Source: Candidatus Nanohaloarchaea archaeon | GTDB taxonomy: Archaea > Nanohalarchaeota > Nanosalinia > Nanosalinales > Nanosalinaceae | Assembly: GCA_042217585.1 (NCBI GenBank) | Contig: JBDGSJ010000021.1 | Location: 1-36,852, forward strand | Direction: 5' to 3' | DNA length: 36,852 nt | Shown here: piece after piece, positions 312 through 27,491 of the stretch | Position numbering within the stretch: the stretch's first letter is position 1 | How the letters are laid out: each line of letters starts with the position of its first letter | Notes under the pieces: generated by a model | Seen by the model: only the letters and a program-made list of their open reading frames with translations | Database searches by the model: none | Told to the model about the DNA's origin: nothing | Made by a program: the position numbers and the translations under genes

Positions 312-635
312 GTGCAGGAAGAGGTCCTTGAGGAGAGGTCCCGGGAGCGAGAGGTCTGGGACTACTCCGCGGACGGTCTTCTCGGTTTTCCCGCAGGGGA
401 AGAGGAGGTGGACCGCCTTTTCGAGGAGTACAGGGAAAGTGAGGTCCGCGTGGATGAGAAGGACGTCGCCGGCCTCGAATACTATGACGCGGTCCTTGAC
501 GGCGACTCAGTCAGGGCCATCGTCGGCGACAGCGCCACGGTTTACCTGAACTCGGAGGACCCTTCAGAGGAGATCCTTGAACCTTTCTACGAGGTCCTGG
601 GAGTCGAGGAAGAGGAGGTGTACGACCTGATGTAG
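312..635 (+). CDS. hypothetical acidic protein (~107 aa)
   Basis: The acidic coding-like part of ORF 231..635 begins at GTG 312, preceded by SD-like GAAGGTGG. Confidence 0.7.
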   Translation: MQEEVLEERSREREVWDYSADGLLGFPAGEEEVDRLFEEYRESEVRVDEKDVAGLEYYDAVLDGDSVRAIVGDSATVYLNSEDPSEEILEPFYEVLGVEEEEVYDLM

Positions 636-3964: not shown

Positions 3965-5275
3965 ATGATGGAAAGAACCTACACCCACGACATCACCCCG
4001 GAGGACGACGGCGAGGAAGTCGCTGTCGCGGGGTGGGCCCACGAGATACGAGACCTCGGGGGCATCACGTTCGTCATCCTGCGCGACCGAAAAGGCCAGA
4101 TACAGGTAACATTCAAGGAGGACGAGAATAACGAGCTCTTCGATAATGCGCAGGACATAGGCAAGGAGGACGTTATACAGGTAAAGGGTGTAGTCGAGGA
4201 GAACGACCAGGCGCCCGGCGACCGGGAGATACAGCCCTCAGAACTTGAAATAATCGGAGAAGCGGAATCTCCCCTGCCGATGGACATCTCCAAGGACATC
4301 GACACCGACCTGTCCACCAGGCTGGACAACCGGTTCATGGACCTCAGGAAGCCGGAGATCCACGCCATCTTCTCCCTCAGGAGCAAGGCCCTCGAGGCCA
4401 TGGAGGAATGGTTCGAGGAAGAGGACTACATCAACATCCAGACACCGATAATCTCGAAGGAGGGCGCCGAGGGAGGAGCAGACCTCTTCCCCGTGATCTA
4501 CTACGACGAGGAGGCATTCCTCTCACAGAGCCCCCAGCTCTACAAGCAGATGCTGATGGCCGCAGGGTTCGACAAGGTCTACGAGACCGGGACCGCGTTC
4601 CGCGCCGAGGACTTCGCCACCTCCCGCCACGTCTCCGAGATCTCCATGTTCGACGTCGAACTAGCCTTCATAGACGACCACCACGACGTCATGGACGTGC
4701 AGGAGGAAAGCCTCAGGTACACCCTGAGAAAAGTCAGGGAGCGGGCCGCAGACGAACTCGACACCCTCGGAGTCGACCTGGAGGTCCCCGAAGACGACTT
4801 CCCGAGGATAAAGTTCCAGGAAGCCCGCCGCATCCTCAGAGAGGAGTACGACCACGTACCGGACGACGACAACGACCTGGACACAAAGGGCGAGAAACTC
4901 CTGGGAGAACACTTCGAGGAGAAGGGACACCCCGCCTTCTTCGTAGTAGGATTCCCCGACGAAAAATTCTACTACATGCAGGACGTGGAAGGCGACGACA
5001 TCGCCTCAAGAAAGTTCGACCTGATCTACAAGGGACAGGAACTCACCTCCGGGGGACAGAGAGAACACGACATGGACACCCTGATGGAATCACTTCGGGA
5101 AGAAGGCGCGGACCCGGAGGACTTCGAATTCTACCTCGAAGCCTTCAAATTCGGCATGCCACCCCACGGAGGCTACGGCCTCGGGATCGACCGGATGATC
5201 CAGAAGATAGCCGAACTCGACAACATAAAAGAAGCGATCCTGTTCCCGAGGGACCCCAACAGGCTGGAACCATAG
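3965..5275 (+). CDS. aspS: aspartate--tRNA(Asp/Asn) ligase, archaeal type, probably non-discriminating
   Basis: OB fold [12 protein letters not shown], motif 2 FRAE..TSRH..E and motif 3 [14 protein letters not shown]. His in GWAH and Pro in QAPG are the non-discriminating-type residues. Confidence 0.96.
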
Positions 5276-5339
5276 TCATCCACTCCACATTTCGGCTTTC
5301 CCCTTTCCTTTTAATCTTGGCACGAGTATGGTTTGTTAG

Positions 5340-7877
5340 ATGCCAGAGGCCATGCAGAAGGAGGAAGAGCAGGATTACACGGGTTCGGAGACCCGTATCA
5401 ACAAGGTGACGTGCAGGGGTTTCAAGTCGTTCCAGCAGAAGACGGCGATCCCGTTTTTTGAGGGTCTGACGGCGATCGTCGGGGAGAACGGGACTGGCAA
5501 GTCGAATGTCCTGGATGCCATAAGTTTTGTTTTCGGGAGGAGGTCTTCGAAGCTGAGGGCTGAGAAGCTGGAGCAGCTGATCTTCAACGGCCCTGAGGAC
5601 CGGAAGCCGGCTGACTACGCCCATGTTACCATCTACCTGGATAACTCCTCCGGGCTGTTCGACGAGTTCCTGGATGATGAGGAAGAGGCGGATGAGGTCA
5701 CTGTGGGGAGGAAGATAACGAGGGCTGGTTCTTCGATGTACAAGTTCCAGGGGACGAACTGCAAGAGGTCCCTGATCGATGAGATAATGGAGAAGGCGAA
5801 CATCGACCCCGAGGGCTACCATTTCGTCCGGCAGGGCAAGGTGACGGAGATAGTGGAGCAGAACGACGTTGAGAGGAGGAAGGTGATAGATGATCTCTCC
5901 GGCGTCAGGGAGTTCGACGAGAAGAAGGAGGAGGCGATGGAGGAGCTTGAAGAGGTGGAGGACCGGCTGAACGAGCAGGAGATAAAGCTTGAGCAGAAGA
6001 AGGACTACCTCGAGGACCTGAAGGAGCAGAAGGAGCTGGCGCTGAAGTACCGGGAGCTTGAGGAGCGGAAGGAGAAGCTCCAGGCTTCGATACTTGAGGT
6101 CCGGAAACGGGCGCTCTCCAACAGGCTGGCGAACATCAATACCGATACCTCGGAGAAACGTGAAAGGATCGAGGAGCTTGAAGAGGAGCTGGAGGAGATA
6201 GATGAGAGGATAGAGGAGAAGCAGGACCGTATCGAGGAGATAGAGGAGCAGGAGTCGGCGAACACGGATATCGAGCACCTGGAGAACAGGATCGATAAGA
6301 AGGAGGGCAAGATAGAGAACAAGAGGGAGAAGATAAAGGACCTCGAGGAGACGATAGAGGAGCTGGAGAAGATGCAGAAGAACCGGAACACCGGTTCAAG
6401 GGCCGTGGACGCGGTCCTCTCCATGGACAACAGCAAGGTGGAGGGGATGTTCCAGGACCTGATCTCGGTGGAGGACCGTTTCGCCGTTGCCATAGATACA
6501 GCGGCCGGCGGCCACATGAACGACGTCGTGGTGCAGGACAAGCAGACCGCTGTCGACTGCATAAACTACCTGAAGAGGGAGAACATCGGCAGGGCGCGGT
6601 TCCTGCCCCTCGACAAGATCAAGGACCGGTCCAAGAGCGCGAAGGCGAAGATGGCGAAAAAGAAGAAGGGAGTGATCGGTTTCGCCGCGGACCTGGTCGA
6701 CAACGACCAGGGATACGACAAGGCGGTCCGGCACGTCTTCAGCGATACGCTGATCGCGGAGGACCTTGACTCTGTGAAGGATATCGACGGTATCAGGGTT
6801 GTCACACTTGACGGGGACGTGATGTCCCGCGGCGGTTCGATGAGCGGTGGAAAGAAGAAAAAGAAGAGGAAGAAGAGCAGCGGGGCTTCATCGGACCGTC
6901 TGGATCCTGACAAGAAGAGGAAGGAGAAGGAGGAGCTCGAGGACGAGATAGAGGACCTCCAGAAGGACGTGGCGGAGCTGAAGCAGATGAAGGAGAGGAA
7001 AGAGGAGGATTCGGAGTCGGACGATGAGCTCAGGGAGGAGAAGAAGAACCTGAGGGATGAGCTCAGTGATCTCCGGGATGAGAGGCAGGAGAAGTACAGC
7101 GAGAAGCAGAAGCTGGAGACCAAGGTGGACGAGGTCGGCCAGAAGAAGGCGAACCTGAAGGCTGAGCTGGAGAACGTCAAGGAGGACCTGGAGGAGTACG
7201 ATTTCGACGAGGACGAGCTCGTGGGCCTGGATTCGACGCCCGAGGAGCTGAAGAAAAAGAAGAGGAAGGTGATCAACAAGCAGAACTCGATGGGTCCGGT
7301 GAACATGCGCGCCATCGACGAGTACAAGGAGAAGAAGGAGGAGTACGACGAGTTCGAGGAGAAGGTATCGGAGGTCCGGCAGGAGAAGCTGGAGATAGAG
7401 GACATGATAGAGGAGATAGAGCAGAACAAGCGGGAGCAGTTCATGGAGGTCTTCGAGGAGATAAACAGGAACTTCTCCGAGATATTCGAGAAGCTTTTCG
7501 ACGGGGGAGAGGCGGAGCTGGTCCTGGAGGACGACGACATCGAGAAGGGACTGAAGATCAGGGCCGCTCCTCCGGACAAGGACCCTCACATCATAGATGC
7601 GCTCTCCGGCGGGGAGAAGACGTTGACGGCTATCGCGTTCGTCTTCGCGATCCTTGAGTACGAGGAGTCGCCTTTTTACATCATGGACGAGATCGATGCG
7701 GCGCTGGACGACACGAACTCCAAGAAGCTGAGCGAGCTCCTGAAGGAGTACGCGGAGGGCAACCAGTTCATCGTGATCTCCCACAACGATATCACGGTCC
7801 GGCACGCCGAGCGCGCCTACGGCGTCTCGATGAGGAAGGGCGTGACCAAGATGCGGAGCATCGAACTGGAGGAATAG
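5340..7877 (+). CDS. smc: SMC ATPase with short coiled-coil arms (845 aa)
   Basis: Walker A GENGTGKSN, Q-loop VRQG, hinge GRARFLPL...VTLDGD..GGSMSGG, signature LSGGEK, Walker B YIMDEIDAALD and ISH switch. Confidence 0.95.
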   Translation: MPEAMQKEEEQDYTGSETRINKVTCRGFKSFQQKTAIPFFEGLTAIVGENGTGKSNVLDAISFVFGRRSSKLRAEKLEQLIFNGPEDRKPADYAHVTIYLDNSSGLFDEFLDDEEEADEVTVGRKITRAGSSMYKFQGTNCKRSLIDEIMEKANIDPEGYHFVRQGKVTEIVEQNDVERRKVIDDLSGVREFDEKKEEAMEELEEVEDRLNEQEIKLEQKKDYLEDLKEQKELALKYRELEERKEKLQASILEVRKRALSNRLANINTDTSEKRERIEELEEELEEIDERIEEKQDRIEEIEEQESANTDIEHLENRIDKKEGKIENKREKIKDLEETIEELEKMQKNRNTGSRAVDAVLSMDNSKVEGMFQDLISVEDRFAVAIDTAAGGHMNDVVVQDKQTAVDCINYLKRENIGRARFLPLDKIKDRSKSAKAKMAKKKKGVIGFAADLVDNDQGYDKAVRHVFSDTLIAEDLDSVKDIDGIRVVTLDGDVMSRGGSMSGGKKKKKRKKSSGASSDRLDPDKKRKEKEELEDEIEDLQKDVAELKQMKERKEEDSESDDELREEKKNLRDELSDLRDERQEKYSEKQKLETKVDEVGQKKANLKAELENVKEDLEEYDFDEDELVGLDSTPEELKKKKRKVINKQNSMGPVNMRAIDEYKEKKEEYDEFEEKVSEVRQEKLEIEDMIEEIEQNKREQFMEVFEEINRNFSEIFEKLFDGGEAELVLEDDDIEKGLKIRAAPPDKDPHIIDALSGGEKTLTAIAFVFAILEYEESPFYIMDEIDAALDDTNSKKLSELLKEYAEGNQFIVISHNDITVRHAERAYGVSMRKGVTKMRSIELEE

Positions 7878-7954
7878 GCGGACCGCACCTGTTAAAAGCC
7901 TGAAGCCCCCATTCACGGTGTAAGGGGGTTGAGGGGGGTCGACCGTGGAGTTTT

Positions 7955-8665
7955 ATGGACCGATACGACATCCAGATGCTGGCAGAGCAGCCCTGGGAGG
8001 AGACTCTTGAGGCACTGACCGCGGACATGGACCCCGAGGACATCGATCTGATGGTTCTCACGGAGCGGTACAGGAAGTACATCGACGAGATGCAGGAATA
8101 CGATCTCAGGGTTCCCGCGAAGGCGATACGTGTATGTTCGGCGCTCCTGAAGATGAAGGCGATGACACTGTACTACGAGGAGGAACAGCAGGAAGAGGAG
8201 CCGGACGAGATTGAGGAGATGGAAGAGGTCGAGGAAGATGAGGACGAGATGCCGGACCTGGACATGGGACCTGAACTTGACATGCCGGTGAAGGCGAAGC
8301 CCCGTCGCAGGGTCGCGCTGAAGGACCTGAAGGAGTCACTGGAGGACGCCATGGAGATAAAGGAGCGCAGGGAGGAGAGACAGGAGATGCGTGAGGAGAT
8401 AGACCAGGCGTTCGAGATAGAGGAAGAGGATCTGACCCAGAAGCTGGACAGTCTCTTCGACCGTATCAAGGGACTGGTCTCCCGGGAGACGAGGGAAGAG
8501 GTCGAGTTCGAGAAGCTGATAGAGTCCGATGATAACGAGGAGAAGATCGAGAAGTTCAAACACATACTGACCCTTGAGAACGACGAGAAGGTCGAGGTAA
8601 TACAGGAGGAGTTCCTCGGCCAGCTACACGTAAAACCTGACCATGAAGCGGAGACCGTGAACTGA
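7955..8665 (+). CDS. scpA: kleisin ScpA
   Basis: MDPEDIDL..LT.RY...ALLKMKA N-terminal motif and C-terminal QEEFLG; directly downstream of smc. Confidence 0.9.
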   Translation: MDRYDIQMLAEQPWEETLEALTADMDPEDIDLMVLTERYRKYIDEMQEYDLRVPAKAIRVCSALLKMKAMTLYYEEEQQEEEPDEIEEMEEVEEDEDEMPDLDMGPELDMPVKAKPRRRVALKDLKESLEDAMEIKERREERQEMREEIDQAFEIEEEDLTQKLDSLFDRIKGLVSRETREEVEFEKLIESDDNEEKIEKFKHILTLENDEKVEVIQEEFLGQLHVKPDHEAETVN

Positions 8666-8666
8666 G

Positions 8667-9203
8667 ATGGAAGAGAAGAAGGCAAGACTCGAGGCCGCAC
8701 TTTACCTGTCGGATGAACCGATCGACCGGGAGGAGATAGCGGACGTCCTGGACCTGGGTAGCATGGGCTACGTCGACATGCTGATAGAGGAGTTCGAGGA
8801 GGACCTTGAGGCGGAGAACCGTGGGATGGAGCTGGTGGAGACCGGGGACGGCTACGAGCTGAAGGTGAAGAGGGACCATCTCGACCACGTCGAGCACCTG
8901 GCGCCGCACCAGGACCTGAACGAGGGACAGCTCCGGACCCTCTCGCTGATCGCGTACAACGCGCCGGTGGAGCAGACCGACATCGTGGATATAAGGGGTA
9001 ACAGGACCTACCAGCACGTGAAGGAGCTGGTGGACCGCGGGTTCATCTCGAAGGAGAAGGACGGCAGGACCGCGATACTTGACACGACCGACTTCTTCCT
9101 TGACTACTTTGATATCGACTCGCTGGAGGAGTTCCGGCGGCAGTTCGAGAACGAGCAGAAGGGCAGAGAGGGAGAGCAGCAGGGGATGGAGATGTACGAG
9201 TGA
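8667..9203 (+). CDS. scpB: kite subunit ScpB
   Basis: Motifs LEAALY, LRTLSLIAY..PV.Q..I..IRG and TTDFFLDYF. Confidence 0.93.
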   Translation: MEEKKARLEAALYLSDEPIDREEIADVLDLGSMGYVDMLIEEFEEDLEAENRGMELVETGDGYELKVKRDHLDHVEHLAPHQDLNEGQLRTLSLIAYNAPVEQTDIVDIRGNRTYQHVKELVDRGFISKEKDGRTAILDTTDFFLDYFDIDSLEEFRRQFENEQKGREGEQQGMEMYE

Positions 9204-9240: not shown

Positions 9241-11127
9241 ATGGAGCTCACCAGCCTTGACCTCTCGCTGCTGATGGATGAGTTCGGCGAACTGGAGGAG
9301 GGACACATACAGAAGGTCTACCAGCGGGAAAAGGAGCTCACGCTGGAGGTCTACATCCACGGAGAGGGCAAGAAGAGGCTGGTGATAGGCACGGACCGCG
9401 CCTTCCTCTCGAAGTACAAGCGCGACAACCCGACGCGCCCGCCGGGGTTCTGCATGGAGCTGAGGAAGCATCTCTCTCGCGTCGATTCGATACACCAGGA
9501 GGGCTTCGACCGGGTCCTGGAGATAGAGAGCGGCGACACAAGGCTCGTATGTGAGCTGTTCGGCAAGGGCAACTTCATACTGGTCAAGGACGGGAAAGTG
9601 ATAGGCGCTCTCAGACAGGAGGAATGGTCCAACAGGAAGATAGAGGTCGGCGAACCCTACCAGTATCCCGAGCCGGCGGAGGACCCCCGCGAGCTCGACG
9701 ACTTCTTCGAGGCGATGGATGAGGGCGAGGTGGTCCGGAGGATAGCATCCGATCTCAGCCTCGGCGGGACCTACGCCGAGGAGGTCTGCGCCCGGGCGGA
9801 CGTCGACAAGAACACGGAGATAGAGGACCTGAACGGGGACGAAAGGGAAAGGCTGAGGGAGAAGATAGGCGAGGTCCTGGAACCCGAGATGAGTCCGAGG
9901 CTGTACGTGGACGAGGGTCCGGAGCGTGCCGCACCCTTCAGGCTGGAGAAGTACGCGGACCACGAGTACGAGGAGTTCGACAGTTTCTCAGAGGCCCTGG
10001 ACAACTACTACTACCGGAGGAAGCAGAGGAAGCACGAGAGAAAGCGAAGGGAGGCCTACGAGGAGAAGAAGAGCGGGCTGGAGAAACAGAAGGAGCAGCA
10101 GGAGAGAAAGATGAATGGACTGGAGAAGTCCGCGGAGCAGAACAGGGAGAGAGCGGAGAAGATATACGAGAACTACCAGATGCTGCAGAAGGTCAAGGAC
10201 CAGGTCTCGAAGGGGATAAGTGAGAACGGCTGGGACCGGGCTGAGGAGAAGATAGAGGAGTCGGATACCGGGCTCTCCGAGAAGGTGAACTCGCTGAACG
10301 AGCAGGAGAACTTCGTATCGGTCTCTGTGGACGGCGACAACCTGAAGATATACCTGGACCGGGACCTGGAGGCGACCGCCTCCTACTACTACGACAGGGC
10401 GAAGGAATCCGAATCAAAGATGGAGAACGTGGAGGAGGCTTTAGAGGAGACGGAGAGACAGCTTGAGGAGCTTGAAGAGGAGGAAGTGGACGTGGAAGAA
10501 GTGATGGAGGACAAGACCGAGAAGAGGAAGAAGAAATGGTTCGAGAAGTACCGCTGGTTCTACTCCTCGGGCGGACACCTGGTCCTGGCGGGGAGGGACC
10601 AGCAGACCAACGACATGCTGGTCAGCAAGCACATGGAGAGCGACGACCTCTACTTCCACGCTGACTTCGACGGCGCACCCTCAGTCGTGCTGAAGGACGG
10701 ACAGGAAGCCGGCGAGGAGGACCGGAGAGAGGCCGCGAAGGCCGCAGTCACATTCGCGAAGACCTGGAAGGCCGGGATCGGTGCGGACGACGTCTACTAC
10801 GTGGACCCGGAGCAGGTCACCGAGGAGCCGGAGAGCGGGGAGTACCTGGAGAAGGGATCGTTCGTGATAAGAGGTGACCGGGAGTACATCAGGAACGTCT
10901 CCGTGGAGGCTGCGGTCGGACCCTACGAGATAGAGGACGGGAAGTTCGTGCCTGTCTGCGGGCCTGTCAGCGCCGTGGAGAGCAACTGCGAGGGATACGT
11001 GGAGCTGAGGCCGGGGAACACCAAGAAGTCGGAGCTCGCGAAGCAGATCCGATCCCGTTTCGACCAGGACCTGGACCTCGACTACGTGATAAGGTCGCTT
11101 CCGCCGGGGAAGTCGGAGATAGAGTAG
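9241..11127 (+). CDS. rqcH: ribosome quality control Rqc2/RqcH (NFACT/FbpA family)
   Basis: Motifs FCMELRKHL, FDRV, ELFGKGN, WFEKYRWF, GRDQQTND, FHAD..GAP and PESGEYL.KGSF.IRG. TATA TTTAAA at 9213-9218. Confidence 0.93.
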   Translation: MELTSLDLSLLMDEFGELEEGHIQKVYQREKELTLEVYIHGEGKKRLVIGTDRAFLSKYKRDNPTRPPGFCMELRKHLSRVDSIHQEGFDRVLEIESGDTRLVCELFGKGNFILVKDGKVIGALRQEEWSNRKIEVGEPYQYPEPAEDPRELDDFFEAMDEGEVVRRIASDLSLGGTYAEEVCARADVDKNTEIEDLNGDERERLREKIGEVLEPEMSPRLYVDEGPERAAPFRLEKYADHEYEEFDSFSEALDNYYYRRKQRKHERKRREAYEEKKSGLEKQKEQQERKMNGLEKSAEQNRERAEKIYENYQMLQKVKDQVSKGISENGWDRAEEKIEESDTGLSEKVNSLNEQENFVSVSVDGDNLKIYLDRDLEATASYYYDRAKESESKMENVEEALEETERQLEELEEEEVDVEEVMEDKTEKRKKKWFEKYRWFYSSGGHLVLAGRDQQTNDMLVSKHMESDDLYFHADFDGAPSVVLKDGQEAGEEDRREAAKAAVTFAKTWKAGIGADDVYYVDPEQVTEEPESGEYLEKGSFVIRGDREYIRNVSVEAAVGPYEIEDGKFVPVCGPVSAVESNCEGYVELRPGNTKKSELAKQIRSRFDQDLDLDYVIRSLPPGKSEIE

Positions 11128-15757: not shown

Positions 15758-15908
15758 TATTATAGGACCTCCGTAACTCTCTATAGCCTTTTAATCTTTT
15801 CAGTTTGAGGTCCGGTGGCGATCTGGATCGACAGCCAGGTGATATCTCCGGGACCTGAATAGCCGTGTTAACTTTTAATACAGGCGCCGGTTTAATTTGT
15901 AAACAGTG

Positions 15909-16991
15909 ATGGATCCGGGAGAGGTATCTGATCACACAGTGAAGGAAGTGAAGGAGAAGGTAAAAGGCGGAGATATCAGCGCTGAAGCGGCGCTGGATGC
16001 CGAGAGGTCTGGCAAGGAACGGAAAACGCTCACAGGATGGCTTGAAAAAAGGGCTGAAGACGGAGAAACAGTTTCACAAGAACAGGAGGATTCAGATACT
16101 ATGGACGATTCAAAGAAGGAAAAGATGAGGGAAAAAGCGGAGGAAATCGAGTCATCGATCGAAGAAGTAACCTCGTCTTTCGAAACACTTTCATCCGTCT
16201 CCTCACAGATGGCGGAGAGAAGCGAGAAGCAGGCAGAAAACCTGGATGAACTTAAGTCAGGTATAAACGAGATATCAGCTTCTGCAGAGCAGATAGCGAA
16301 CAACTCGGAGGACGCCGCCGACTCAATATCCAACATAAACAGGTTCTCCCAGCAGGCAGGCCAGTCAGCCGAGGAAGGGATGAGCAAGATGGAGGAGATG
16401 GAAGAGACAGTCTCCGAGGCCCGGAGCTCGGTTGAGGAATTGACGGAGAAAAGCAAGAACATAAGGGAGATAACGAAGACTATAAACGATATCGCGGAGA
16501 AGACCGACCTCCTGGCACTGAACGCCTCCATCGAGGCCGCAAGGGCCGGTGAGCAGGGACGCGGATTCGCCGTCGTCGCCGACGAGGTCAAGCAGCTCGC
16601 GGAGAACACCTCGAACTCCACAGAGGACATATCGAACATGGTCGAGGACATGGAGAACAGCATAGACGACGTGAGCGAGAAGATCGGCCAGACCGAGGAT
16701 ATACTGGAGAACAGCTCGGGCGTTATCAGGTCAGCTCTAACGGCTCTCGAGGAGATATCCGACGAGATATCCAACCTTTCCTCCGAGATGCAGGAGATAT
16801 CCGCCGCGGCCCAGCAGCAGTCCTCCAGCACCATGGACATCGGGGAGACCGCCGAACAGGTCTCTTCAGCCGCAGAAGAGCTCTCAGCAGGCATACAGGA
16901 GGTCACATCCACCGTCGAGGAGGAAAGCACCAAGATAGAGAAAGTCGAAGAAGACATCAAGGAGACGCGTGAAATCCTTGAGGACACGTAG
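15909..16991 (+). CDS. soluble methyl-accepting chemotaxis protein with no TM, HAMP or recognisable sensor domain
   Basis: Hairpin tip [38 protein letters not shown]. Methylation-type sites [18 protein letters not shown] and QEVTST. Confidence 0.93.
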
Positions 16992-17004
16992 AGGCGTGTA
17001 AAAA

Positions 17005-17580
17005 ATGCAAGGAGAGGAGGAAGAAGAATCGCTGGCCGATACCACCCAGATATTCGTGTTTGAACTGGCCGGGGAGGAGTACGCGCTGGAGATAGAGAGA
17101 GCCAAGGAAGTTATCAAGGCCGACGAGAAGAAGATAAACCCTGTTCCCAACGTACCAGACTACATACGCGGGATAACGAACATCAGGGGCCAGGTAGTCC
17201 CTGTGATAGATCTAGAACCGCGTTTCGACCTGAAAGAGAACGAGAGCAAGTTTATAGTCGTGATAGAGGTGAACGATGCCAGCGCGGGTATGCTGGTGGA
17301 TGATGTCAAGGAAGTCCTGGACGTGAAGAAGGACCGTATAAAGGATTCTCCGTCGATACTGGAGGAGGAGATACACGCGGACTACATAAAGGGAGTCGCG
17401 GTCCTTGATGAGCGCCTGATAATCATACTGGATCTCGAGAACGGACTCGGCGAGGAGGAAGCGATGAAGATAAATGAGATAGGGGAGAAGATGGGAGAGG
17501 ACGAAGACGAGGAGGATGAAGAGGAACTGACCCAGGAAGAGATACGGAAAAAGGCCAAGGAAAGAGTTAAGGAGAGCTGA
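17005..17580 (+). CDS. cheW: chemotaxis coupling protein CheW with acidic C-terminal tail
   Basis: Motifs FELAGEEYAL, VPNVPDYIRGITNIRGQVVPVIDL and GMLVDDV. Confidence 0.95.
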   Translation: MQGEEEEESLADTTQIFVFELAGEEYALEIERAKEVIKADEKKINPVPNVPDYIRGITNIRGQVVPVIDLEPRFDLKENESKFIVVIEVNDASAGMLVDDVKEVLDVKKDRIKDSPSILEEEIHADYIKGVAVLDERLIIILDLENGLGEEEAMKINEIGEKMGEDEDEEDEEELTQEEIRKKAKERVKES

Positions 17581-17943
17581 TCACTCCATATCCAGCACGT
17601 CCTTGATGGTGGCCTTGACATCATCGTTCTCGAAGGGCTTCTCGACGAACTCCTCGGCGCCCAGATCCATCGCCTCGTCGACCATCTCCTGCTGACCGAC
17701 TGCCGAAATCATTATGACCGTGGCGTCGCTCTCCATCTCCTTTATCTGCTTGAGGGCCTCTATCCCTCCCATCTCCTCCATGACGATGTCCAGGAGGACT
17801 ATGTCCGGTCTGCTGTCCCTGTACTTCTCGACTGCCTGCTCGCCGTTCTCCGCTTCCTTTATCTCGTCGAAGCCGAGGTCCTCCAGGATGTTGACCAGTA
17901 TCTTCCTCATGAAGGAGGAGTCTTCAGTTACGAGTGCTTTCAT
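17581..17943 (-). CDS. cheY: chemotaxis response regulator CheY
   Basis: Single receiver domain with ED..FMR, LLDIVM (phospho-Asp), MISAVGQ and KPF. Confidence 0.92.
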   Translation of the reverse strand: MKALVTEDSSFMRKILVNILEDLGFDEIKEAENGEQAVEKYRDSRPDIVLLDIVMEEMGGIEALKQIKEMESDATVIMISAVGQQEMVDEAMDLGAEEFVEKPFENDDVKATIKDVLDME

Positions 17944-18305
17944 TCTTCCTCACCCAGTATTTCCTCAATTTTAGGTATAAGCTTTTCCTTGGTTATCGGC
18001 TTCTGGACGTAACCCTTCGCCCCTATCTCCTTTGTCTCATCTATCGTGTCCTGCTCCCTCACGATCGAGACGACTATCACGTCCGCGTCTCTCTCCTCAA
18101 GCTCCTTCAAGACCTCTATACCATCCATATCAGGAAGCCTGAGGTCCAGCAACACGAGATCCGGCTCTTCCTCGTCGTACTTCTCGATACCTTCCTCTCC
18201 CTCGCCGGTCTCGATTATATCGTCGTATCCCTCATCCTTCAAAAGCTTGATTATGGCCTTTCTCTCAAATATCGAATCCTCTATCGAAAGTATTGTCGGG
18301 CCCAT
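17940..18305 (-). CDS. second single-domain response regulator (CheY-like, 121 aa)
   Basis: Start MGPTILSIEDS at 18305; LLDLRLPDMDG, VVS and KP. Stop overlaps the cheY start by 4 nt. Confidence 0.88.
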   Translation of the reverse strand: MGPTILSIEDSIFERKAIIKLLKDEGYDDIIETGEGEEGIEKYDEEEPDLVLLDLRLPDMDGIEVLKELEERDADVIVVSIVREQDTIDETKEIGAKGYVQKPITKEKLIPKIEEILGEEE

Positions 18306-18473
18306 AGCTCCAAGTAGACAGGCTTTTTTTAAAACGTTTATGAGTTCCCTGGAAGCCGGTACGCCGGGACGCGACATGGATATCTCCCCCGTGCGCGGAC
18401 CGACCGCATGGCTTTTATATGATAGATCAACTAACGGTATTAAGGAAAAGGTCCCGGAGGAGCACAATCAAAA

Positions 18474-19079
18474 ATGAAGAATTCTAAACTTACAGAACTT
18501 CAGAGGGACGGAATCAGCGAGATAGGGAATATAGGTGCTGGAAGAGTAGCTACCCGTCTCTCGGACATAACAGGGAAACGGGTCAACCTGAGCGTCCCTC
18601 AGGTGGACATAATCCCTCCTTCCGCGACCGAGAACATAACCGAACTGGCGGAGAACCCTCACTCGCCGATCGTGAGCGTCTTCTCACCTCTGAAGGGTAT
18701 AGGGGGAGGTATCGTCCTTAGCTTCCAGAAGAAGGAGTACTCGCAGTTCCTGAACCTGCTTGAGGAAGATGAGGATGGCAGCAACGACAACCTCCTTGAG
18801 ATAGGCGAGGAGACTGCGGACATATACCTTGATTCCATGGAGCAGTTCCTGGAGCTTAACGTCGATACCGAGGAACCTGACCTGATCTTCCTTCCGCTCG
18901 AGGGCCTTTTCAAGAACATCGTGGCCGAGATAGGCTCAGAAAGCGAGGAAGAATCCGATATACTCGTCGTCAAGACAGTCATGGAGATAGAGGACGTGGT
19001 GAAGGGCGAGATAACGATGATAATAGAGATAGAGGAGACCGACAGGATAATAGACGCGCTTGAAAAGCGTATGGGCTAG
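18474..19079 (+). CDS. cheC: CheC-family CheY-P phosphatase; first active site intact, second degenerate
   Basis: DGISEIGNIGAG matches D/S-x3-E-x2-N. The second site LLEIGEE lacks the Asn. Confidence 0.85.
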   Translation: MKNSKLTELQRDGISEIGNIGAGRVATRLSDITGKRVNLSVPQVDIIPPSATENITELAENPHSPIVSVFSPLKGIGGGIVLSFQKKEYSQFLNLLEEDEDGSNDNLLEIGEETADIYLDSMEQFLELNVDTEEPDLIFLPLEGLFKNIVAEIGSESEEESDILVVKTVMEIEDVVKGEITMIIEIEETDRIIDALEKRMG

Positions 19080-19540
19080 AAGATCTCTGTAGCCTCGAAG
19101 GGCTTCCTGACCACGACCTTTCCGGACCTGCAGTTCAGCCATATCGATCTCCCTGTGTCACCGCCCACTTCCTGTACTCTCAGGTCTATATCCATCCTCT
19201 TCAGTATCTTGCGGACCGACTCCACGTTCTTATCGCCCACGTTGATGGTCTCCGAAACGACATGCGCCCCACCGAATATCTTTGCGATAAGGTCCTCCGG
19301 GCCAGAGCCCTCCTCTCTTATCTCATCCATCAGGTCATGGATTATGTTCTCGGCGTACTTATCAGAGTCCTCATCCTCTCCCTCGGGAAGCATGACATGG
19401 GCAAGCCCTCCCAGCTCCCGGTCCTCATCGTAGAGACAGACCGCGACACAGCTCCCGAGACCCTGGGCGCTGAGCACATCACCATCTTTCCCGACCCTGT
19501 ACTCCCCCATCTTGACCTCTATCTGTCTCTTCCGGTCCAC
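19076..19540 (-). CDS. cheD: chemoreceptor glutamine deamidase CheD
   Basis: GLGSCVAVCLYD...GGLAHVMLP (catalytic Cys/His), AKIFGGA and VGG..GR. Confidence 0.95.
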   Translation of the reverse strand: MDRKRQIEVKMGEYRVGKDGDVLSAQGLGSCVAVCLYDEDRELGGLAHVMLPEGEDEDSDKYAENIIHDLMDEIREEGSGPEDLIAKIFGGAHVVSETINVGDKNVESVRKILKRMDIDLRVQEVGGDTGRSIWLNCRSGKVVVRKPFEATEIF

Positions 19541-20178
19541 TACTGATCTACCTCTATCCTGTCCAGTATCAAGTCATACTTGCCGGGTTCGAATATCAGC
19601 ATGAAGAAGGCCTTTGTCTCCTTCTGCAGGGAGAAGTTGGTCTCGAACACCAGGACCTCATCTTCCTCCTCCGCGACCTCGAGGAGGTACTCATCCATTA
19701 TCGCACCCAGCAGGTCGGTCCCCTGCTGTGGCACGCCTTCGACGAGCTTCAGGTCCACGTACTCGGTTATCGCCGCGAGGCAGCTCCCCGCCAGTATGTT
19801 GCCGGTCTCGCTGAGCGAGGACCTCTGCATCTCACTCAGTTCTTCCCCTTCAACCTCCTGACTGGTGAGGTCCTCGGCGAGCTGTTTGGCAGATTCCCAG
19901 TCCAGAGAGAGAAGTAGGTGGCCCAGTTTCGTCTCATCATCGCCTTCGTGGTTCTTGACGCTCACCTTGATCGCCACCACGGTCACCGGCTGAGAGTAGC
20001 CTCCCAGGAGGTCCGGAACATCCTTTATCCTGTGACTCCTGATGTTCGGGAACGTTACCTCCACCTTTTCATCAGTCAGTTCGGAAAGAGATTTTGAAGC
20101 GTTTCCCGCGCCCACGTGAGCTATCTCCCTAAGCGCGTCCAGTTTCTCCTCGCTCAGATCCATATTCTCAATCACCAA
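19540..20178 (-). CDS. cheC: CheC-family CheY-P phosphatase; first site N-to-H, second intact
   Basis: DALREIAHVGAG and SSLSETGNILAG. Start may be ATG 20163. Confidence 0.88.
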   Translation of the reverse strand: MVIENMDLSEEKLDALREIAHVGAGNASKSLSELTDEKVEVTFPNIRSHRIKDVPDLLGGYSQPVTVVAIKVSVKNHEGDDETKLGHLLLSLDWESAKQLAEDLTSQEVEGEELSEMQRSSLSETGNILAGSCLAAITEYVDLKLVEGVPQQGTDLLGAIMDEYLLEVAEEEDEVLVFETNFSLQKETKAFFMLIFEPGKYDLILDRIEVDQ

Positions 20179-21748
20179 GTAATGAACTTATCTCGACTAT
20201 TATCGTTGGGTTTCCATCCGCAAGTATCGAGGCACCCGCCACCCCCTTGGGTTCGAGTATATCCAGGTCCTTGATGACGAGATCCTGGACGTTCGTGATC
20301 CGGTCCACGACCAGTCCTGCTCTCTCGTTTCCTTTCTGAACCACGACCGCGTTTATCTGGTCCCTATCCCTGCCCGCATCGGCGACGTCGAACCGGTCCT
20401 CCAGCATGATCAGCGGTATCTCCTCCTCCTGGAATACGAAGACCTCCTCTTCCTCAAGGCTCTTTATATCTTCCTTACCGAGCGAAACCGCCTTGATTAT
20501 GTTGTTTATCGGTATACCGAACCTCTGATTCCCTACCTGGACCAGGAAGCAACGGACTATAGCCAGTGAGAGCGGGACCTGCATCTTTATCGTCGTCCCG
20601 TGGTCCAGCTCAGTCTCTATATCGTAGGTGCCCTGAAGCTTCTCTGCGGTCTTCTTCACTACGTTCAGGCCTACACCCCTTCCCGATACCTGTGTTACCT
20701 CGTCGGTCGTCGAGAAGGAGGGCTGGAAGAGGAGGTCCAGCGTCTCCTCCCTCGAAAGTTCCTTCTTCTCCTCCTCGTCTATCACTCCTTTCTCGACCGC
20801 TTTATCCCTGACATCCCTGGGGTTTATACCTCTTCCATCGTCCTCTACGGCTATTATCACCTCGTTACCTTTCCTCTCTGCGCTCAGCTTGATACTGCCC
20901 TCGGGATCCTTCCCTTTATCCTCCCTCTCCTCCGGGCTCTCGATCCCGTGGTCCACGGCGTTCCTTATCATGTGGAGGATCGGTTCCCCTATCTCGTCAA
21001 GTATGGTCCTGTCCAGTCTCAGGTCCTCACCCTCTATCTCGAAGTTGACCTGTTTGTCCATGTCACTGGCGATATCCCGGACCGCTCTCGGGAACCGGTC
21101 GAACACCTGCGAAGCCGGTATCATACGTGCCTGGGATGCCTCGTGCTGTATGTCCTCGCCGAGACGTTTCAGCGTGTTCATCGCCGATTCCACGTCATCG
21201 GACTCGAAAGGAGTCAGCAGCTTCCTCAGCCTCTTCTCGACGATCATCAGCTCGCCGAGAGAGTTCATGATCTTGTCAAGCCGCTCTATATCCACCTGGA
21301 CCCTCTGAATCTCCTCGAACTCCTCCGGGCTCTCCGCCACGGAGTCGGAGGACATCTCCTCAAGTTCCTCCCCCTTCTGTGCGTGTTCAAGGTTCTCCAG
21401 AAGGTCAGAGATATCGCGGTCCGGCTCCTCGACGTTTTCCCCGGCGTACTCCACCATCTCCTCTAGGGTGTCTATCGAGTTGAAAAGAAGGTCGAAAAGT
21501 TCATCATCCGGCTCTATATCTCCCTCCTGCAGGGCGTTAAATACATCCTCCATGGAGTGCGAGAGCTCGGCTATCTTCTCGAACTCCATGGTCCTCGAGG
21601 ACCCCTTCAGGGTGTGAGCCGAACGAAAAAGCTCGTTGAGCGCCTCCTCATCCCCAGATTCCTCGAAATCGAGCATACTCTCGTTCATGTTGTCGAGCAT
21701 GTCATTCGCTTCGTCCATGTAGTCGTCGAGAAATTCTTCTTTTTCCAT
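20168..21748 (-). CDS. cheA: chemotaxis histidine kinase CheA lacking the P2 (CheY-binding) domain
   Basis: HPt LFRSAHTLKG, short linker, dimerisation domain VQVDIERLD, HMIRNAVDHG, DDGRG, SGRGVGL and C-terminal CheW-like domain; 526 aa. Confidence 0.96.
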   Translation of the reverse strand: MEKEEFLDDYMDEANDMLDNMNESMLDFEESGDEEALNELFRSAHTLKGSSRTMEFEKIAELSHSMEDVFNALQEGDIEPDDELFDLLFNSIDTLEEMVEYAGENVEEPDRDISDLLENLEHAQKGEELEEMSSDSVAESPEEFEEIQRVQVDIERLDKIMNSLGELMIVEKRLRKLLTPFESDDVESAMNTLKRLGEDIQHEASQARMIPASQVFDRFPRAVRDIASDMDKQVNFEIEGEDLRLDRTILDEIGEPILHMIRNAVDHGIESPEEREDKGKDPEGSIKLSAERKGNEVIIAVEDDGRGINPRDVRDKAVEKGVIDEEEKKELSREETLDLLFQPSFSTTDEVTQVSGRGVGLNVVKKTAEKLQGTYDIETELDHGTTIKMQVPLSLAIVRCFLVQVGNQRFGIPINNIIKAVSLGKEDIKSLEEEEVFVFQEEEIPLIMLEDRFDVADAGRDRDQINAVVVQKGNERAGLVVDRITNVQDLVIKDLDILEPKGVAGASILADGNPTIIVEISSLLGD

Positions 21749-21754
21749 GACAGA

Positions 21755-22738
21755 TCAGGTCAGCTCCATTATCTTTTCGGGTATTTTCTCAAGGGGTACC
21801 ACGTAATCGGCATCTCCCTGCCTAATTACTTGTTGCCCCATCCCGAATATTAAACTTGTATCCCGGTCCTGAACTATAATTTTTCCCCCTGCCGAGCTCA
21901 GGAAACGGGTCCCGACAGCCCCGTCCCGGCCCATACCGGAGAGTATCACTCCAACAGCGTTCGTACCGAACACCTCGGCCACGGACCTGAACGTGGCATT
22001 CACAGAGGCTATATCCTCCGAATCGCTTTCCTCCTCTACAAGGAAGAACTCCTCTCCCCTCCTCTCGACCTTCATGTCCTTCTCCGAGCGGGATATCCAC
22101 ACCTGCCCCGGTCCAAGCCTCTCCGAGTCAGAACATAACCTCACATCGAGTTCCGAAAGGCTGTCCAGCCGATTCGCGAACAGCTCGACCATCGGACCTG
22201 ACATGTGCTGGACCACGAGCACAGGAACCTCGAGATCGCCGGGAAGGTTCTTCAGTATGAACTCTATCTCCGGTGGTCCGCCCGTCGATGCCCCTATGAC
22301 GACTACCTGCTGGGAGAAATCCGGAGATTCTTTCTCCTTCCTGATCCGTGATTCCACCTGCTCCTTTACCCGGGCTCCGCCAACGGCCCTGAGGAGAGCT
22401 CTCTTGTCTTCAGCAGAATCCTCAGGCGTTATAAAATCTACAGCCCCGTATGAGAACGCCTTGACGGCCTCCCTTCTTTCCACATCCGCATCATCCAGTA
22501 TCATAACCGTCGGGATTTTTTTCAGGTCCATAACCTCCTCCAGAACGTCAAGACCAGACATCTGACCAAAATTAACTCCAAGCAGAAGAACATCGATATC
22601 TCGATTCTTCAGAGCCTCAAATACATCCGTGGGACGATGGAAAACCCCTACTACCTCTATATCATCTTCCTGACCGATCTCTCTGCTGATCTGGCGCCTT
22701 CTTTCGAATTCAGGATGCGCTATCGCTACCTTGAGCAT
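21755..22738 (-). CDS. cheB: CheB methylesterase with pseudo-receiver domain
   Basis: Catalytic GASTGG, VQHM and SGMGRDG are intact. The receiver reads VAIAHP (no DD) and VLLLGV (phospho-Asp replaced by Gly). Confidence 0.92.
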   Translation of the reverse strand: MLKVAIAHPEFERRRQISREIGQEDDIEVVGVFHRPTDVFEALKNRDIDVLLLGVNFGQMSGLDVLEEVMDLKKIPTVMILDDADVERREAVKAFSYGAVDFITPEDSAEDKRALLRAVGGARVKEQVESRIRKEKESPDFSQQVVVIGASTGGPPEIEFILKNLPGDLEVPVLVVQHMSGPMVELFANRLDSLSELDVRLCSDSERLGPGQVWISRSEKDMKVERRGEEFFLVEEESDSEDIASVNATFRSVAEVFGTNAVGVILSGMGRDGAVGTRFLSSAGGKIIVQDRDTSLIFGMGQQVIRQGDADYVVPLEKIPEKIMELT

Positions 22739-22901
22739 GTTTTTAGTTCTACCAGAGAGTGATTTAAATCTGAGACAGATCTCTGAACACGTTCACGGAT
22801 CCAATATAGTCCTTAGATGACCCAGAAACCGGCTCATGTAGCCAGAAAATGGTAGCATTTTTAAACAAGTTCTCTTTAGAGTAAAACAGGGTTTCTTACC
22901 C

Positions 22902-24272
22902 ATGGAAATTAAGACGAAGATAGCAGGATCCCTTCTCGCTCTGGTAGTAGTGACAGGCCTTCTACTGGGCACGCTGGGAGTAACCGCCCTACAGAACGCA
23001 GAGAGAAAGGCCACGAACACTGCCCAGAAAGAGGTCCGGCAGATCACAGAATCCAGGCTGACCGCTGTAAGAGACGCCAAGGTCAACAAGTACAACCAGA
23101 TGCTCGGGGAAGTCGAGCACGACGCCAAGGCAGCGGCGCACTGGATACAGTACCGTTACGACGGTCTGCCGTCGGACGAAGCCTTCCACTACCAGAACGA
23201 GTCCAAGGACACCGCTAAGATCGGTTTCTACGTGCCGCCGAACAACACCTACGGCGTGCGGCACGCACCCGGCCAGCAGGATGAACTCACTAAGCTGTCC
23301 TATGTCGGACACTACCTGCGCGGAGTAGTCAAGAACTCCGACCTGGTGACTTTCGGCTACCACTGGTCCGAGAGAGTCAACAGCCAGGCAACGGTGGTCT
23401 ACGAGACCAACATCTCAGGAACTCTCTGGGCCGGTCCAGGACCACAGGACAACGTGAAGCTGATCGGGGTCAACAGGCCTTATTACGAACAGGCCAAGGC
23501 CAAGGACCACGGAGTATGGGTCCGGCCCTACGTTGACGCCAACACAGGACAGCTGACGACGACTTACGCGGAGCCGGTATACGCTTCGCCTGAAGAGGAA
23601 GAGTTCGTCGGCGTCGTGGGGCTTGACGTCCTTTTCTCGACACTCCAGAACGATCTCCTGTCACTTGACGGCATGCCTGAGGGAAGCTTCGGTTTCCTTC
23701 TAGACTCCACAGGCAAGCCGGTCGTTTACCCGGGAGTAAGCGGCAAGGACGACCAGAAGAAGACGAGATATGGGGAGAGAACTCTCAACACGACGGACCT
23801 GACCACTGCTGAGGACGCGGACATCAGGTCCATCGCGAACTCGATGGTGAACGGAGAGACCGGAATCAGCGAAGCGACATTCCAGAACAGGACCTATCTG
23901 GTCGCCTACGCGCCCCTCAAGAACTCCACGGGCGGATGGTCCGTGGCTCTCGCAGTGCCGAAGAGCGAAGTTACCCAGCCCGTCAGGAACATCGGATCAG
24001 AGATAGGCTCGGTACTCCAGAGGACGCAGAGACAGATGATCACGGGCGGAATCCTCGCCGTGGTCCTGGCAGGAATCGTCGGCTTCTACGTCTCACGCAG
24101 GATAACATCGCCGATTGAGGAACTCACCGAGGAAGCGAACGAGATAGCGAGAGGTAATTTCGTGGACGTCGACGTTGACACGGACGACGAAGTCGGGGAA
24201 CTCGCTGACGCTATCAGAGGCATGGTCAAGAGCCTCAAGCAGATGGCCGGAGAGGAAAGCGGGTCCGAATGA
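22902..24272 (+). CDS. membrane sensor TM-dCache-TM-HAMP with no output domain
   Basis: Two TM helices. Cache motifs RPYY...PYVDANTG...GVVGLDV and AYAPL...WSV. HAMP ITSPIEEL...IARG...DEVGELADAI..M ends about 8 aa before the stop. Confidence 0.9.
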   Translation: MEIKTKIAGSLLALVVVTGLLLGTLGVTALQNAERKATNTAQKEVRQITESRLTAVRDAKVNKYNQMLGEVEHDAKAAAHWIQYRYDGLPSDEAFHYQNESKDTAKIGFYVPPNNTYGVRHAPGQQDELTKLSYVGHYLRGVVKNSDLVTFGYHWSERVNSQATVVYETNISGTLWAGPGPQDNVKLIGVNRPYYEQAKAKDHGVWVRPYVDANTGQLTTTYAEPVYASPEEEEFVGVVGLDVLFSTLQNDLLSLDGMPEGSFGFLLDSTGKPVVYPGVSGKDDQKKTRYGERTLNTTDLTTAEDADIRSIANSMVNGETGISEATFQNRTYLVAYAPLKNSTGGWSVALAVPKSEVTQPVRNIGSEIGSVLQRTQRQMITGGILAVVLAGIVGFYVSRRITSPIEELTEEANEIARGNFVDVDVDTDDEVGELADAIRGMVKSLKQMAGEESGSE

Positions 24273-27435: not shown

Positions 27436-27491
27436 GCCACGGGTTAAACTGAAATACTGTCGTCGAGAAGGTCTTTCCGGAGGGGAGTCAG

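What the first reader, a model, noticed from the sequence alone, without database searches (positions are those of the whole stretch)
5340..9203. Natural mini-SMC: coiled-coil arms about half the canonical length, with intact ScpA and ScpB
Seen: 845 aa with all head and hinge motifs. Head-to-hinge spans about aa 187-354 and hinge-to-head about aa 500-651, so both arms are symmetrically 150-165 aa. Known: prokaryotic Smc is usually about 1150-1200 aa with arms near 300 aa, arm length is constrained to discrete periodic values, and many archaea lack ScpB. Inference: a functional, much smaller condensin ring suited to a tiny cell and genome, informative for loop-extrusion models.
Basis: partly seen in the sequence, partly recalled or inferred. 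Interest (0 to 1): 0.7.

Follow-up and report, generated by a model that had tools for sequence, protein, structure and literature searches.

The report
Half-armed SMC condensin, archaea to bacteria
This is a real, intact chromosome-folding SMC motor whose coiled-coil arms are half the usual length; that build is the normal state of several tiny-archaea lineages and was handed on to one bacterial phylum, so it is a natural test of how short an SMC arm can be and still work.

Summary
Confirmed. Window 5340-7877 is an intact archaeal-type Smc (845 aa) of a nanohaloarchaeon, followed by scpA and scpB. On the scale of Burmann 2017 its arm is 173 aa against 344 in B. subtilis (about 25 nm). The hinge-proximal half is missing; head, neck and joint are kept. 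It is no misassembly. No full-length form turned up among matching Nanohaloarchaeota (62 of 70 genomes match) or Aenigmatarchaeota (91 of 91), and Undinarchaeota relatives are equally short. The bacterial phylum Bipolaricaulota carries the same smc-scpA-scpB operon as its only hinge-bearing Smc (93 of 121 genomes); its Smc groups with Nanohaloarchaeota (100/99). The length class was glimpsed in 2017 as a possible minor mode (3 of 3337 sequences, unnamed), and engineered B. subtilis arms of 136-174 aa gave almost no growth. Loop extrusion and ScpB binding are inferred, not shown. 'Suited to a tiny genome' is weak, because Woesearchaeota keep long arms. This scan found the same short Smc before in Aenigmatarchaeota and Undinarchaeota; the bacterial transfer did not appear in those notes or in my paper searches. 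New variant of a known kind; interest 0.55.

The parts
5340..7877 (+). smc, 845 aa, archaeal-type Smc with 173-aa arms
   Evidence: (TIGR02168 605.8 vs cut-off 567.35; TIGR02169 691.8 vs 729.4)
5394..5906 (+). N-terminal half of the ABC ATPase head (aa 19-189; Walker A, Q-loop). Some relatives carry an intein in Walker A; this gene does not
5907..6380 (+). N-terminal arm strand (aa 190-347, 158 aa); helices 190-305 and 310-345 in the model
6342..6374 (+). approximate point (aa 335-345) where about 175 hinge-proximal residues of the canonical N-strand are missing
   Evidence: profile mapping, (offset jumps from -13 to +162; mid-arm z only 2.5-3.4)
6381..6878 (+). SMC hinge (aa 348-513) with glycine-rich motif and a lysine-rich exit (aa 505-512)
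6879..7439 (+). C-terminal arm strand (aa 514-700, 188 aa); helices 523-555, 562-618, 634-650, 658-720
6912..6944 (+). approximate point (aa 525-535) where about 165-170 hinge-proximal residues of the canonical C-strand are missing
   Evidence: offset jumps from +166 to +326..337
7194..7310 (+). Smc joint (aa 619-657), retained
   Evidence: 5XEI head+joint, TM 0.68 by target; z 6.5-7.2
7440..7862 (+). C-terminal half of the head (aa 701-841; signature, Walker B, D-loop, H-loop)
7955..8665 (+). scpA, kleisin, 236 aa, archaeal type with an acidic middle region of about 45 aa (my count from the alignments)
   Evidence: best solved match T. onnurineus ScpA 6IVH, E 3.5e-10
8667..9203 (+). scpB, kite protein, 178 aa, starting one base after the scpA stop
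   Evidence: (TIGR00281 128.6 vs cut-off 89.2)

Best explanation
The three genes encode the organism's ordinary chromosome-organising condensin. An Smc homodimer is joined at the hinge, closed by ScpA between the neck of one head and the cap of the other, and probably assisted by ScpB. SHOWN: intact head, joint and hinge; arms of 173 aa made by loss of the hinge-proximal half; fixed across whole phyla; single copy. INFERRED from B. subtilis and Thermococcus work: ATP binding engages the heads and opens the arms, hydrolysis re-zips them and moves a captured DNA segment into the kleisin compartment, so the complex translocates and extrudes loops. The shortening (171 aa) is close to two super-helical periods (1.9 periods of 91 aa), which keeps hinge and head in the same rotational phase; this is why this length, and not an intermediate one, was tolerated. 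INFERRED consequence: arms of about 25 nm give smaller steps (about 70 bp of DNA per arm length against about 145) and, by the segment-capture model, work against higher DNA tension. Loading needs no ParB. History: the deletion predates the split of Aenigmatarchaeota and Nanohaloarchaeota; Undinarchaeota have the same deletion by shared descent or convergence (unresolved); the whole operon passed from this archaeal stock into Bipolaricaulota bacteria.
For: Motifs. AlphaFold2 model with 70 aligned sequences, mean pLDDT 81.7, canonical element order; fold match to Pyrococcus head+joint 5XEI. Arm length is very tight: 169.5-183.5 in 120 of 120 closest proteins (median 173), 170.5-177 in 29 of 30 Aenigmatarchaeota loci (1 truncated), 172-174 in 24 of 25 Undinarchaeota-type proteins (1 partial), 169-180 in 13 of 13 Bipolaricaulota loci. 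Among 145 measurable of the best 150 cluster representatives none lies at 183-231 or 244-305 (a sample biased towards the query). Same part of the arm is missing in Nanohaloarchaeota, Aenigmatarchaeota and Undinarchaeota. dN/dS well below 1 in arms and core. One smc per genome in 8 of 8 single-contig nanohaloarchaea and one SMC hinge in each of 93 matching Bipolaricaulota genomes. Bacterial rpoB over cut-off on the same contig as the operon in G165 and G166. Head+hinge-only trees join Nanohaloarchaeota and Bipolaricaulota at 100/99 under two models; a clade with three other bacterial Smc is rejected, p 0.0006. [quoted passage not shown] TIGR00180 ParB not found in 5 of 5 genomes searched.
Against: No activity, structure or expression was measured. 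Engineered B. subtilis arms of 136-174 aa gave zero colony area in 34 of 39 constructs and at most 0.09 in the other 5, against up to 2.4 near wild-type length: correct phase alone does not make this length work in that host. The window protein misses the TIGR02169 cut-off (691.8 vs 729.4). A half turn of DNA inside so small a compartment costs about 10 kT against 5 kT (rough estimate). Six archaeal ScpA-ScpB pairs did not bind in vitro, even from adjacent genes (PMC7055376), and this ScpA is of that type. Archaeal smc deletions have little phenotype, so conservation need not mean motor activity. 28 of 121 Bipolaricaulota genomes gave no SMC hinge. Mid-arm mapping is weak (z 2.5-3.4). The exact donor is unsure: nesting inside Nanohaloarchaeota falls to 88/96 under the mixture model and is not seen with ScpB; the bacterial outgroup itself attaches inside the short group, a likely long-branch effect.
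Confidence: 0.7

Rival explanations
1. The complex is a real ATPase ring that loads on and holds or bridges DNA but does not extrude loops processively, because the compartment is too small to capture a DNA segment.
For: No B. subtilis construct of this length supports growth; out-of-tune mini-Smc load and hydrolyse ATP but do not move; about twice the bending cost; published simulations went only from 50 to 40 nm.
Against: A static clamp gives no reason for arm length to sit within a few residues of a periodic value in four phyla; the joint and all motifs are kept.
Confidence: 0.18
2. The short arm is a by-product of streamlining in small host-dependent cells: the largest tolerated deletion was fixed once and has no special mechanical meaning. 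(Compatible with the best explanation; it concerns why, not how.)
For: The archaeal carriers have genomes of about 0.4-1.9 Mb; about 240-aa arms arose separately inside the Woesearchaeota group and beside P0210, showing repeated shrinking in DPANN.
Against: Woesearchaeota- and Altiarchaeota-named proteins keep 329-342-aa arms; Bipolaricaulota of up to 2.9 Mb hold the short form as their only hinge-bearing Smc. I did not test genome size against arm length statistically.
Confidence: 0.3
3. It belongs to another short SMC-like family (Rad50/SbcC, RecN, Sph/ASRP, MksB, hinge-less Smc) and works in repair or defence.
For: Length (845 aa) is like Rad50 (about 880); weak NCBIfam hits to Rad50, ASRP and RecN.
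Against: Those hits score 46-116 bits against cut-offs of 300-1087; SMC models score 606-692. A true SMC hinge is present and the sequence shows no CXXC hook. scpA and scpB follow directly. The 75 MksB in Burmann Table S4 have arms of 240-345.
Confidence: 0.02
4. Misassembly collapsed repetitive coiled-coil DNA.
For: The arms are E/K-rich, with many degenerate repeats of 60-80% identity; the read-laying tool skipped 6849-6947 as a repeat.
Against: The longer repeat pairs are only 60-77% alike; a second sample's contig has the same 99-base spacing across the skipped stretch; the same length recurs in hundreds of independent assemblies and in closed genomes.
Confidence: 0.01

Closest known systems
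Canonical prokaryotic Smc-ScpAB: B. subtilis Smc; Pyrococcus/Thermococcus Smc (TIGR02169/TIGR02168; PDB 5XEI, 5XNS, 4I99, 6IVH)
   Same: ABC head with all motifs, neck, joint, SMC hinge, kleisin ScpA, kite ScpB; best sequence and near-best fold matches
   Different: Arm 173 aa (about 25 nm) against 344 (49 nm); hinge-proximal half absent; no ParB found
The 'possible minor mode at 163 aa' of natural Smc arms (Burmann et al. 2017, PMC5344682, Table S4)
   Same: Same length class. Row GI 339756830 (head 574-725, hinge 883-1045, head 1232-1372, arm 173) falls exactly on the domain edges of the intein-bearing 1377-aa nanohaloarchaeal Smc (P0104; L034 has the same offsets)
   Different: There it rests on 3 of 3337 rows, with no organisms named in the parts I read and no discussion; here it is the fixed state of three archaeal phyla and one bacterial phylum
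Engineered Mini-Smc of B. subtilis (same paper)
   Same: Same design: hinge grafted on a shortened head-proximal arm
   Different: Engineered arms worked only at 253-267 aa and above; 136-174 aa gave almost no growth
Smc5/6 and short MksB (arms about 272 and 240-247 aa)
   Same: Naturally shortened arms
   Different: One period longer; different subfamilies and partners
Archaeal-type smc transferred to cyanobacteria (PMC12787533) and to Aquifex (recalled; P0244 groups with archaeal Smc)
   Same: Precedent for archaeon-to-bacterium transfer of smc
   Different: Those are full-length; here a half-armed smc moved with scpA and scpB from a DPANN stock
Hinge-less Smc of marine Actinobacteria (PMC12153180)
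   Same: Natural, shortened Smc variant
   Different: Those lack the hinge; this one keeps it

Membership tests
Canonical prokaryotic Smc | Split ABC head with Walker A, Q-loop, signature, Walker B/D-loop, H-loop | tested here: met
   invariant or nearly invariant in 70 aligned short Smc
Canonical prokaryotic Smc | Central SMC hinge with glycine-rich dimer motif | tested here: met
   PF06470 101.7 bits vs 22.5; motif at aa 492
Canonical prokaryotic Smc | Antiparallel coiled-coil arm with head-proximal joint | tested here: met
   joint defined in PMC5526789
Canonical prokaryotic Smc | Curated family score | tested here: inconclusive
   TIGR02168 passed (605.8 vs 567.35), TIGR02169 missed (691.8 vs 729.4) with about 320 profile positions absent; the Aenigmatarchaeota and Undinarchaeota relatives pass both, the Bipolaricaulis protein passes neither
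Canonical prokaryotic Smc | Arm length in one of the allowed periodic classes (major 238, 341, 515; possible minor 163, 423) | tested here: met
   173 aa, the minor class, not the main 341 class
Smc-ScpAB complex | Kleisin ScpA with N-helical domain and C-terminal winged helix encoded with smc | tested here: met
Smc-ScpAB complex | ScpB gene present and co-inherited | tested here: met
   scpB downstream in 39 of 42 nanohaloarchaeal loci with scpA and 16 of 16 Bipolaricaulota loci; 50 of 51 Aenigmatarchaeota genomes
Smc-ScpAB complex | Bacterial-type ScpB-binding middle segment of ScpA (61-72 aa, hydrophobic) | tested here: not met
   about 45 aa, acidic, archaeal type; so 'archaeal Smc-ScpA(B)' rather than bacterial type
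Smc-ScpAB complex | ATP hydrolysis, DNA entrapment, loop extrusion, physical ScpA-ScpB binding | not testable with these tools
   needs biochemistry
Rad50/SbcC | CXXC zinc hook instead of a hinge; Mre11 partner | tested here: not met
   hinge present, no CXXC in the sequence; scores 24-74 vs cut-offs 700-1087
ASRP/Sph, RecN | Curated family score | tested here: not met
   115.7 vs 300 and 46.5 vs 407.85
MksB/MukB | Muk-type head and hinge; arms of 240 aa or more | tested here: not met
   no such family among the best 25 of 43 NCBIfam hits shown; arm range
SMC5/6-related archaeal SMC (Yoshinaga and Inagaki 2021) | Grouping with Smc5/6 in trees; Nse-like partners | not tested
   none was in my trees; the paper found none in DPANN; partners here are ScpA/ScpB type

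The most novel reading that the evidence does not exclude
A condensin with arms of about 25 nm, two periods short and dead as an engineered B. subtilis protein, is the sole, ParB-independent loop extruder of three DPANN phyla and, after whole-operon transfer, of a bacterial phylum. Its ring is too small for easy capture of relaxed DNA, so it would move by markedly smaller steps, at higher stall tension, or on protein-bent DNA. It would set the lower bound on SMC motor size and tell segment-capture, inchworm and elbow-folding models apart. If Undinarchaeota reached the same 172-174 aa separately, that is natural convergence on the third tuned window.
Probability: 0.3. Interest if true: 0.8.

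Novelty: new variant of a known kind. Interest (0 to 1): 0.55.

Why it matters
How SMC motors step along DNA is open, and models differ in what arm length should do. The segment-capture model predicts that shorter coils shift stalling to higher force (PMC6649773), while simulations have tried only 50 against 40 nm. Engineering could not make a working Smc below 253 aa. Nature offers one at 173 aa, conserved over whole phyla, and the Bipolaricaulota copies come from bacteria and are less acidic than the halophile proteins, so they should be easier to purify and to test in B. subtilis (inference). The operon is also a marker of an old DPANN-to-bacteria transfer. The score is held down because the length class was glimpsed in 2017, function is not shown, and this scan has met the short form before.

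Tried and rejected
Second smc in the own assembly: none by tblastn of three domains or by profile (only weak C-head hits to two other ATPase frames); the assembly is 89.7% complete.

Complex prediction of ScpA with two ScpB: no verdict (0.26 and 0.28, mark 0.32); not used as evidence.

Sequencing runs: no RNA holder listed; runs X3 and X4 hold only small shares and were not used.

First idea that the paired helix break at aa 305-310 / 555-562 is the deletion scar: rejected; it maps onto a break also present in long archaeal Smc, about 35 residues from the graft.

One origin for all short forms: not rejected (AU p 0.43, LG+G4) but not recovered either; Undinarchaeota lie outside the 99/99 branch holding the other short forms. 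The 77-row careful tree did not finish (quick tree only), so I used 37 and 34 of those rows. The ScpB tree had no bacterial-type ScpB.

Four genomes of the Bipolaricaulota sample without the short Smc were checked for any SMC hinge: none found.

Other DPANN phyla (Micrarchaeota, Iainarchaeota, Nanoarchaeales, Pacearchaeales) and Korarchaeota could not be surveyed by genome; most long representatives had no name. The other two short rows of Burmann Table S4 (GI 735013947, 501265882) were not identified.

Paper searches that gave no description of this short class or of the bacterial transfer. Subscription papers (e.g. Cobbe and Heck 2004, Soppa 2001, Waldman 2015) are not in the library; Burmann mmc5.pdf, the figures, and supplements of bioRxiv preprints were not visible and could hold length data.
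Full report
Observation. The window is contig C14 of a 980-kb, 89.7% complete assembly; its closest named relatives are Nanohaloarchaeota at 65-80% protein identity. ORF 5340-7877 is an 845-aa Smc with SMC_N and SMC_hinge domains, followed by scpA (7955-8665) and scpB (8667-9203). All ATPase and hinge motifs are intact. The AlphaFold2 model (70 sequences, mean pLDDT 81.7, pTM 0.49) gives head, helices 190-305 and 310-345, hinge, helices 523-555 and 562-618, the joint, and the neck helix 658-720; it matches the Pyrococcus head-plus-joint structure 5XEI.

Arm length on the published scale. Burmann et al. [quoted passage not shown] The prokaryotic sheet is sorted by length in both parts I read; it ends with 209, 193, 173, 160 and 159, so 3 of 3337 rows lie below 190. 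The 173 row has a head ending at residue 725; its boundaries fall exactly on the domain edges of the 1377-aa intein-bearing nanohaloarchaeal Smc P0104, which is 92% identical to the frame in L034. The link of that GI number to this group is my inference from coordinates. Mapped to the window protein, the boundaries give strands of 158 and 188 aa, mean 173, against 344 for B. subtilis: about 24.6 nm if scaled from 49 nm. In their truncation screen growth returned only at 253-267 aa; of 39 constructs at 136-174 aa, 34 gave zero colony area and 5 at most 0.09. One 91-aa period below the viable window is 162-176, which holds 173.

Not an artefact. 62 of 70 genomes of the phylum match. By my count of the table 46 give one uninterrupted match of about 2.5 kb, 3 have frames of 1391-1393 aa with an insertion at Walker A, 13 are truncated or split, and 8 have no match; 8 of 8 single-contig genomes have one match. 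Cultured Nanohalobium constans and Nanohalococcus occultus proteins are 848 and 845 aa. A contig from a second sample of the same study spans 5279-7328 with unchanged spacing. Arm dN/dS is 0.02-0.20 in the 7 pairs with usable dS, of 28 coding sequences. No second smc was found in the assembly.

What is missing. Sliding 25-residue profile windows of 111 short against 66 long archaeal Smc keeps one diagonal from the head to about aa 344, then jumps by about 175 into the hinge; on the C-strand it jumps by 165-170 just after the hinge. The mid-arm signal is weak (z 2.5-3.4) but consistent, and NCBIfam stretches agree (20-348 on 2-327; 526-843 on 852-1181). Undinarchaeota (23 sequences) and Aenigmatarchaeota (33) lack the same part. 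This is the design of the engineered mini-Smc.

Distribution. All 91 of 91 sampled genomes of the phylum of G070 (record titled Aenigmatarchaeota) match: by my count 80 with one frame of 795-878 aa, 1 with a longer open frame but a 2.4-kb match, 5 intein-like, 5 cut by contig ends, none full-length. Aenigmatarchaeota, Caliditerrarchaeota and Nanohaloarchaeota form one clade (bioRxiv 10.1101/2025.08.05.668663, passages). P0148, named Ca. Naiadarchaeales (Undinarchaeota), and its nearest relatives have arms of 172-174 in 24 of 25. Named Woesearchaeota (1142, 1166 aa) and Altiarchaeota (1119 aa) are long. So small DPANN cells do not need short arms.

Transfer to bacteria. Locus L042 came from a record titled Ca. 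Acetothermia (= Bipolaricaulota). In that phylum 19 of 26 genomes matched the short protein, and 93 of 121 have exactly one SMC hinge, 28 none. Of the 93 frames, 87 are 823-1044 codons stop to stop, 5 are under 800 and probably cut, and the one of 1250 proved short. Bacterial rpoB passes its cut-off in 4 of 4 of these genomes, in G165 and G166 on the same contig as the operon; neighbours are bacterial housekeeping genes. Named database relatives include Ca. Bipolaricaulis anaerobius (821 aa), B. sibiricus (822) and Bipolaricaulota sp. J31 (829). scpA and scpB follow smc in 16 of 16 loci. Trees on head and hinge only (403 columns, 37 rows) join Nanohaloarchaeota and Bipolaricaulota at 100/99 under LG+G4 and under C20; a clade with three other bacterial Smc is rejected (p 0.0006), as is holding the archaeal short forms together without Bipolaricaulota (p 3e-10). 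Nesting inside Nanohaloarchaeota is less sure (AU p 0.034 for their monophyly; 88/96; not seen for ScpB), and several Bipolaricaulota rows have odd composition. The direction archaeon to bacterium rests on the wider archaeal spread and the archaeal-type ScpA. ParB (TIGR00180) was not found in G000 or in 4 of 4 Bipolaricaulota genomes, while it rang in 8 of 14 controls.

ScpB. It is present in 50 of 51 Aenigmatarchaeota genomes and downstream of smc-scpA in 39 of 42 nanohaloarchaeal loci that show scpA, of 47 examined, with some duplicates and several cut by contig ends. ScpA is closest to T. onnurineus ScpA and has a short acidic middle. Jeon 2020 (PMC7055376, passages) found no binding in six archaeal pairs and both genes in 160 of 640 species; Yamaura 2025 (PMC11840125, passages) found smc, scpA and scpB in one pathway in T. 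kodakarensis. Co-transfer and retention favour a role, but binding is open.

Mechanism. The most likely reading (0.7) is a working condensin that keeps hinge-to-head phase by dropping about two periods and extrudes loops with smaller steps. Marko 2019 (PMC6649773, passages) predicts stalling at higher force for shorter coils; Nomidis 2022 (10.1101/2021.03.15.435506, passages) saw little change from 50 to 40 nm. A crude estimate doubles the bending cost of a captured half turn, 10 against 5 kT, which keeps the non-extruding clamp rival alive (0.18).

Novelty. It works like, and by the features I could test is, a canonical archaeal Smc; the arm class is the variant. Other papers seen as passages only: PMC8665677, 10.1101/2024.01.07.573240, PMC5526789, PMC12153180, PMC12787533; none of those passages discusses it. 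Nine searches found no description of the class or of the transfer. Earlier notes of this scan report the same short Smc in Aenigmatarchaeota and Undinarchaeota and the same 2017 hint; I had reached those points. Word searches of the notes for Bipolaricaulota with SMC gave none holding both words, though one note mentions 'a few other lineages' without names. Verdict: new variant of a known kind, interest 0.55; most novel reading probability 0.3, interest 0.8.

Noticed in passing
L001:3207-7379, L025, L034; P0070, P0078, P0081, P0129, P0133, P0218, P0231, P0266 and others: An intein-like insertion of about 540 aa with a LAGLIDADG domain sits right after the Walker A lysine of Smc in many short relatives and also in long ones (18 of 20 proteins over 1250 aa with a Walker A match). 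One paper search gave nothing on it.
   Followed up: partly
window 6852-6875 (aa 505-512) and aa 437-443: Lysine-rich patches in and just after the hinge, kept in nanohaloarchaeal relatives despite otherwise acidic arms; candidate DNA contact.
   Followed up: no
P0247 (838 aa, unnamed): A short Smc whose hinge region aligns poorly and lacks the glycine-rich motif; possibly a degenerate or lost hinge.
   Followed up: no
P0147, P0151, P0167, P0174, P0188 and others; P0181, P0226, P0168: Further arm classes among DPANN-like Smc: a group at 306-317 aa, off the published modes, and forms of 232-243 aa that arose separately inside long-armed groups.
   Followed up: partly
28 of 121 genomes in the phylum of G071 (e.g. 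G167, G171, G174, G176): No SMC hinge found; either incomplete or a sub-lineage without Smc.
   Followed up: partly
P0308-P0311: Undinarchaeales Smc of 890-908 aa have the same 173-aa arm, so about 70 extra residues lie outside the arms.
   Followed up: no
L009; cluster of P0125: Likely mislabelled records: L009 is titled Colwellia polaris but carries a 72% identical nanohaloarchaeal smc operon; a member of the P0125 cluster is named Heimdallarchaeota but P0125 groups with a Bipolaricaulis-like protein.
   Followed up: no
L015:299-806; L031:4898-7489: L015 has a 169-codon copy of the smc 5' end just before the full gene; in L031 smc is split by a frameshift. Assembly or sequencing errors are likely.
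   Followed up: no
window 15906-24272: A chemotaxis cluster (MCP signal domain, CheW, two CheC-like, CheA, CheB, and a dCache-HAMP protein without a signalling domain) in a nanohaloarchaeon.
   Followed up: no
window 26107-30972: One-carbon cluster: SHMT, thymidylate synthase, FolC-like ligase, dihydrofolate reductase.
   Followed up: no
window 31707-36851: Open frame of more than 1715 aa running off the contig, with DUF2341 and NEW3 domains; probably a large surface protein.
   Followed up: no
window 3965-5275 and 9241-11127: The operon lies between a class II aminoacyl-tRNA synthetase (Asp type) and an NFACT/Rqc2 gene.
   Followed up: no
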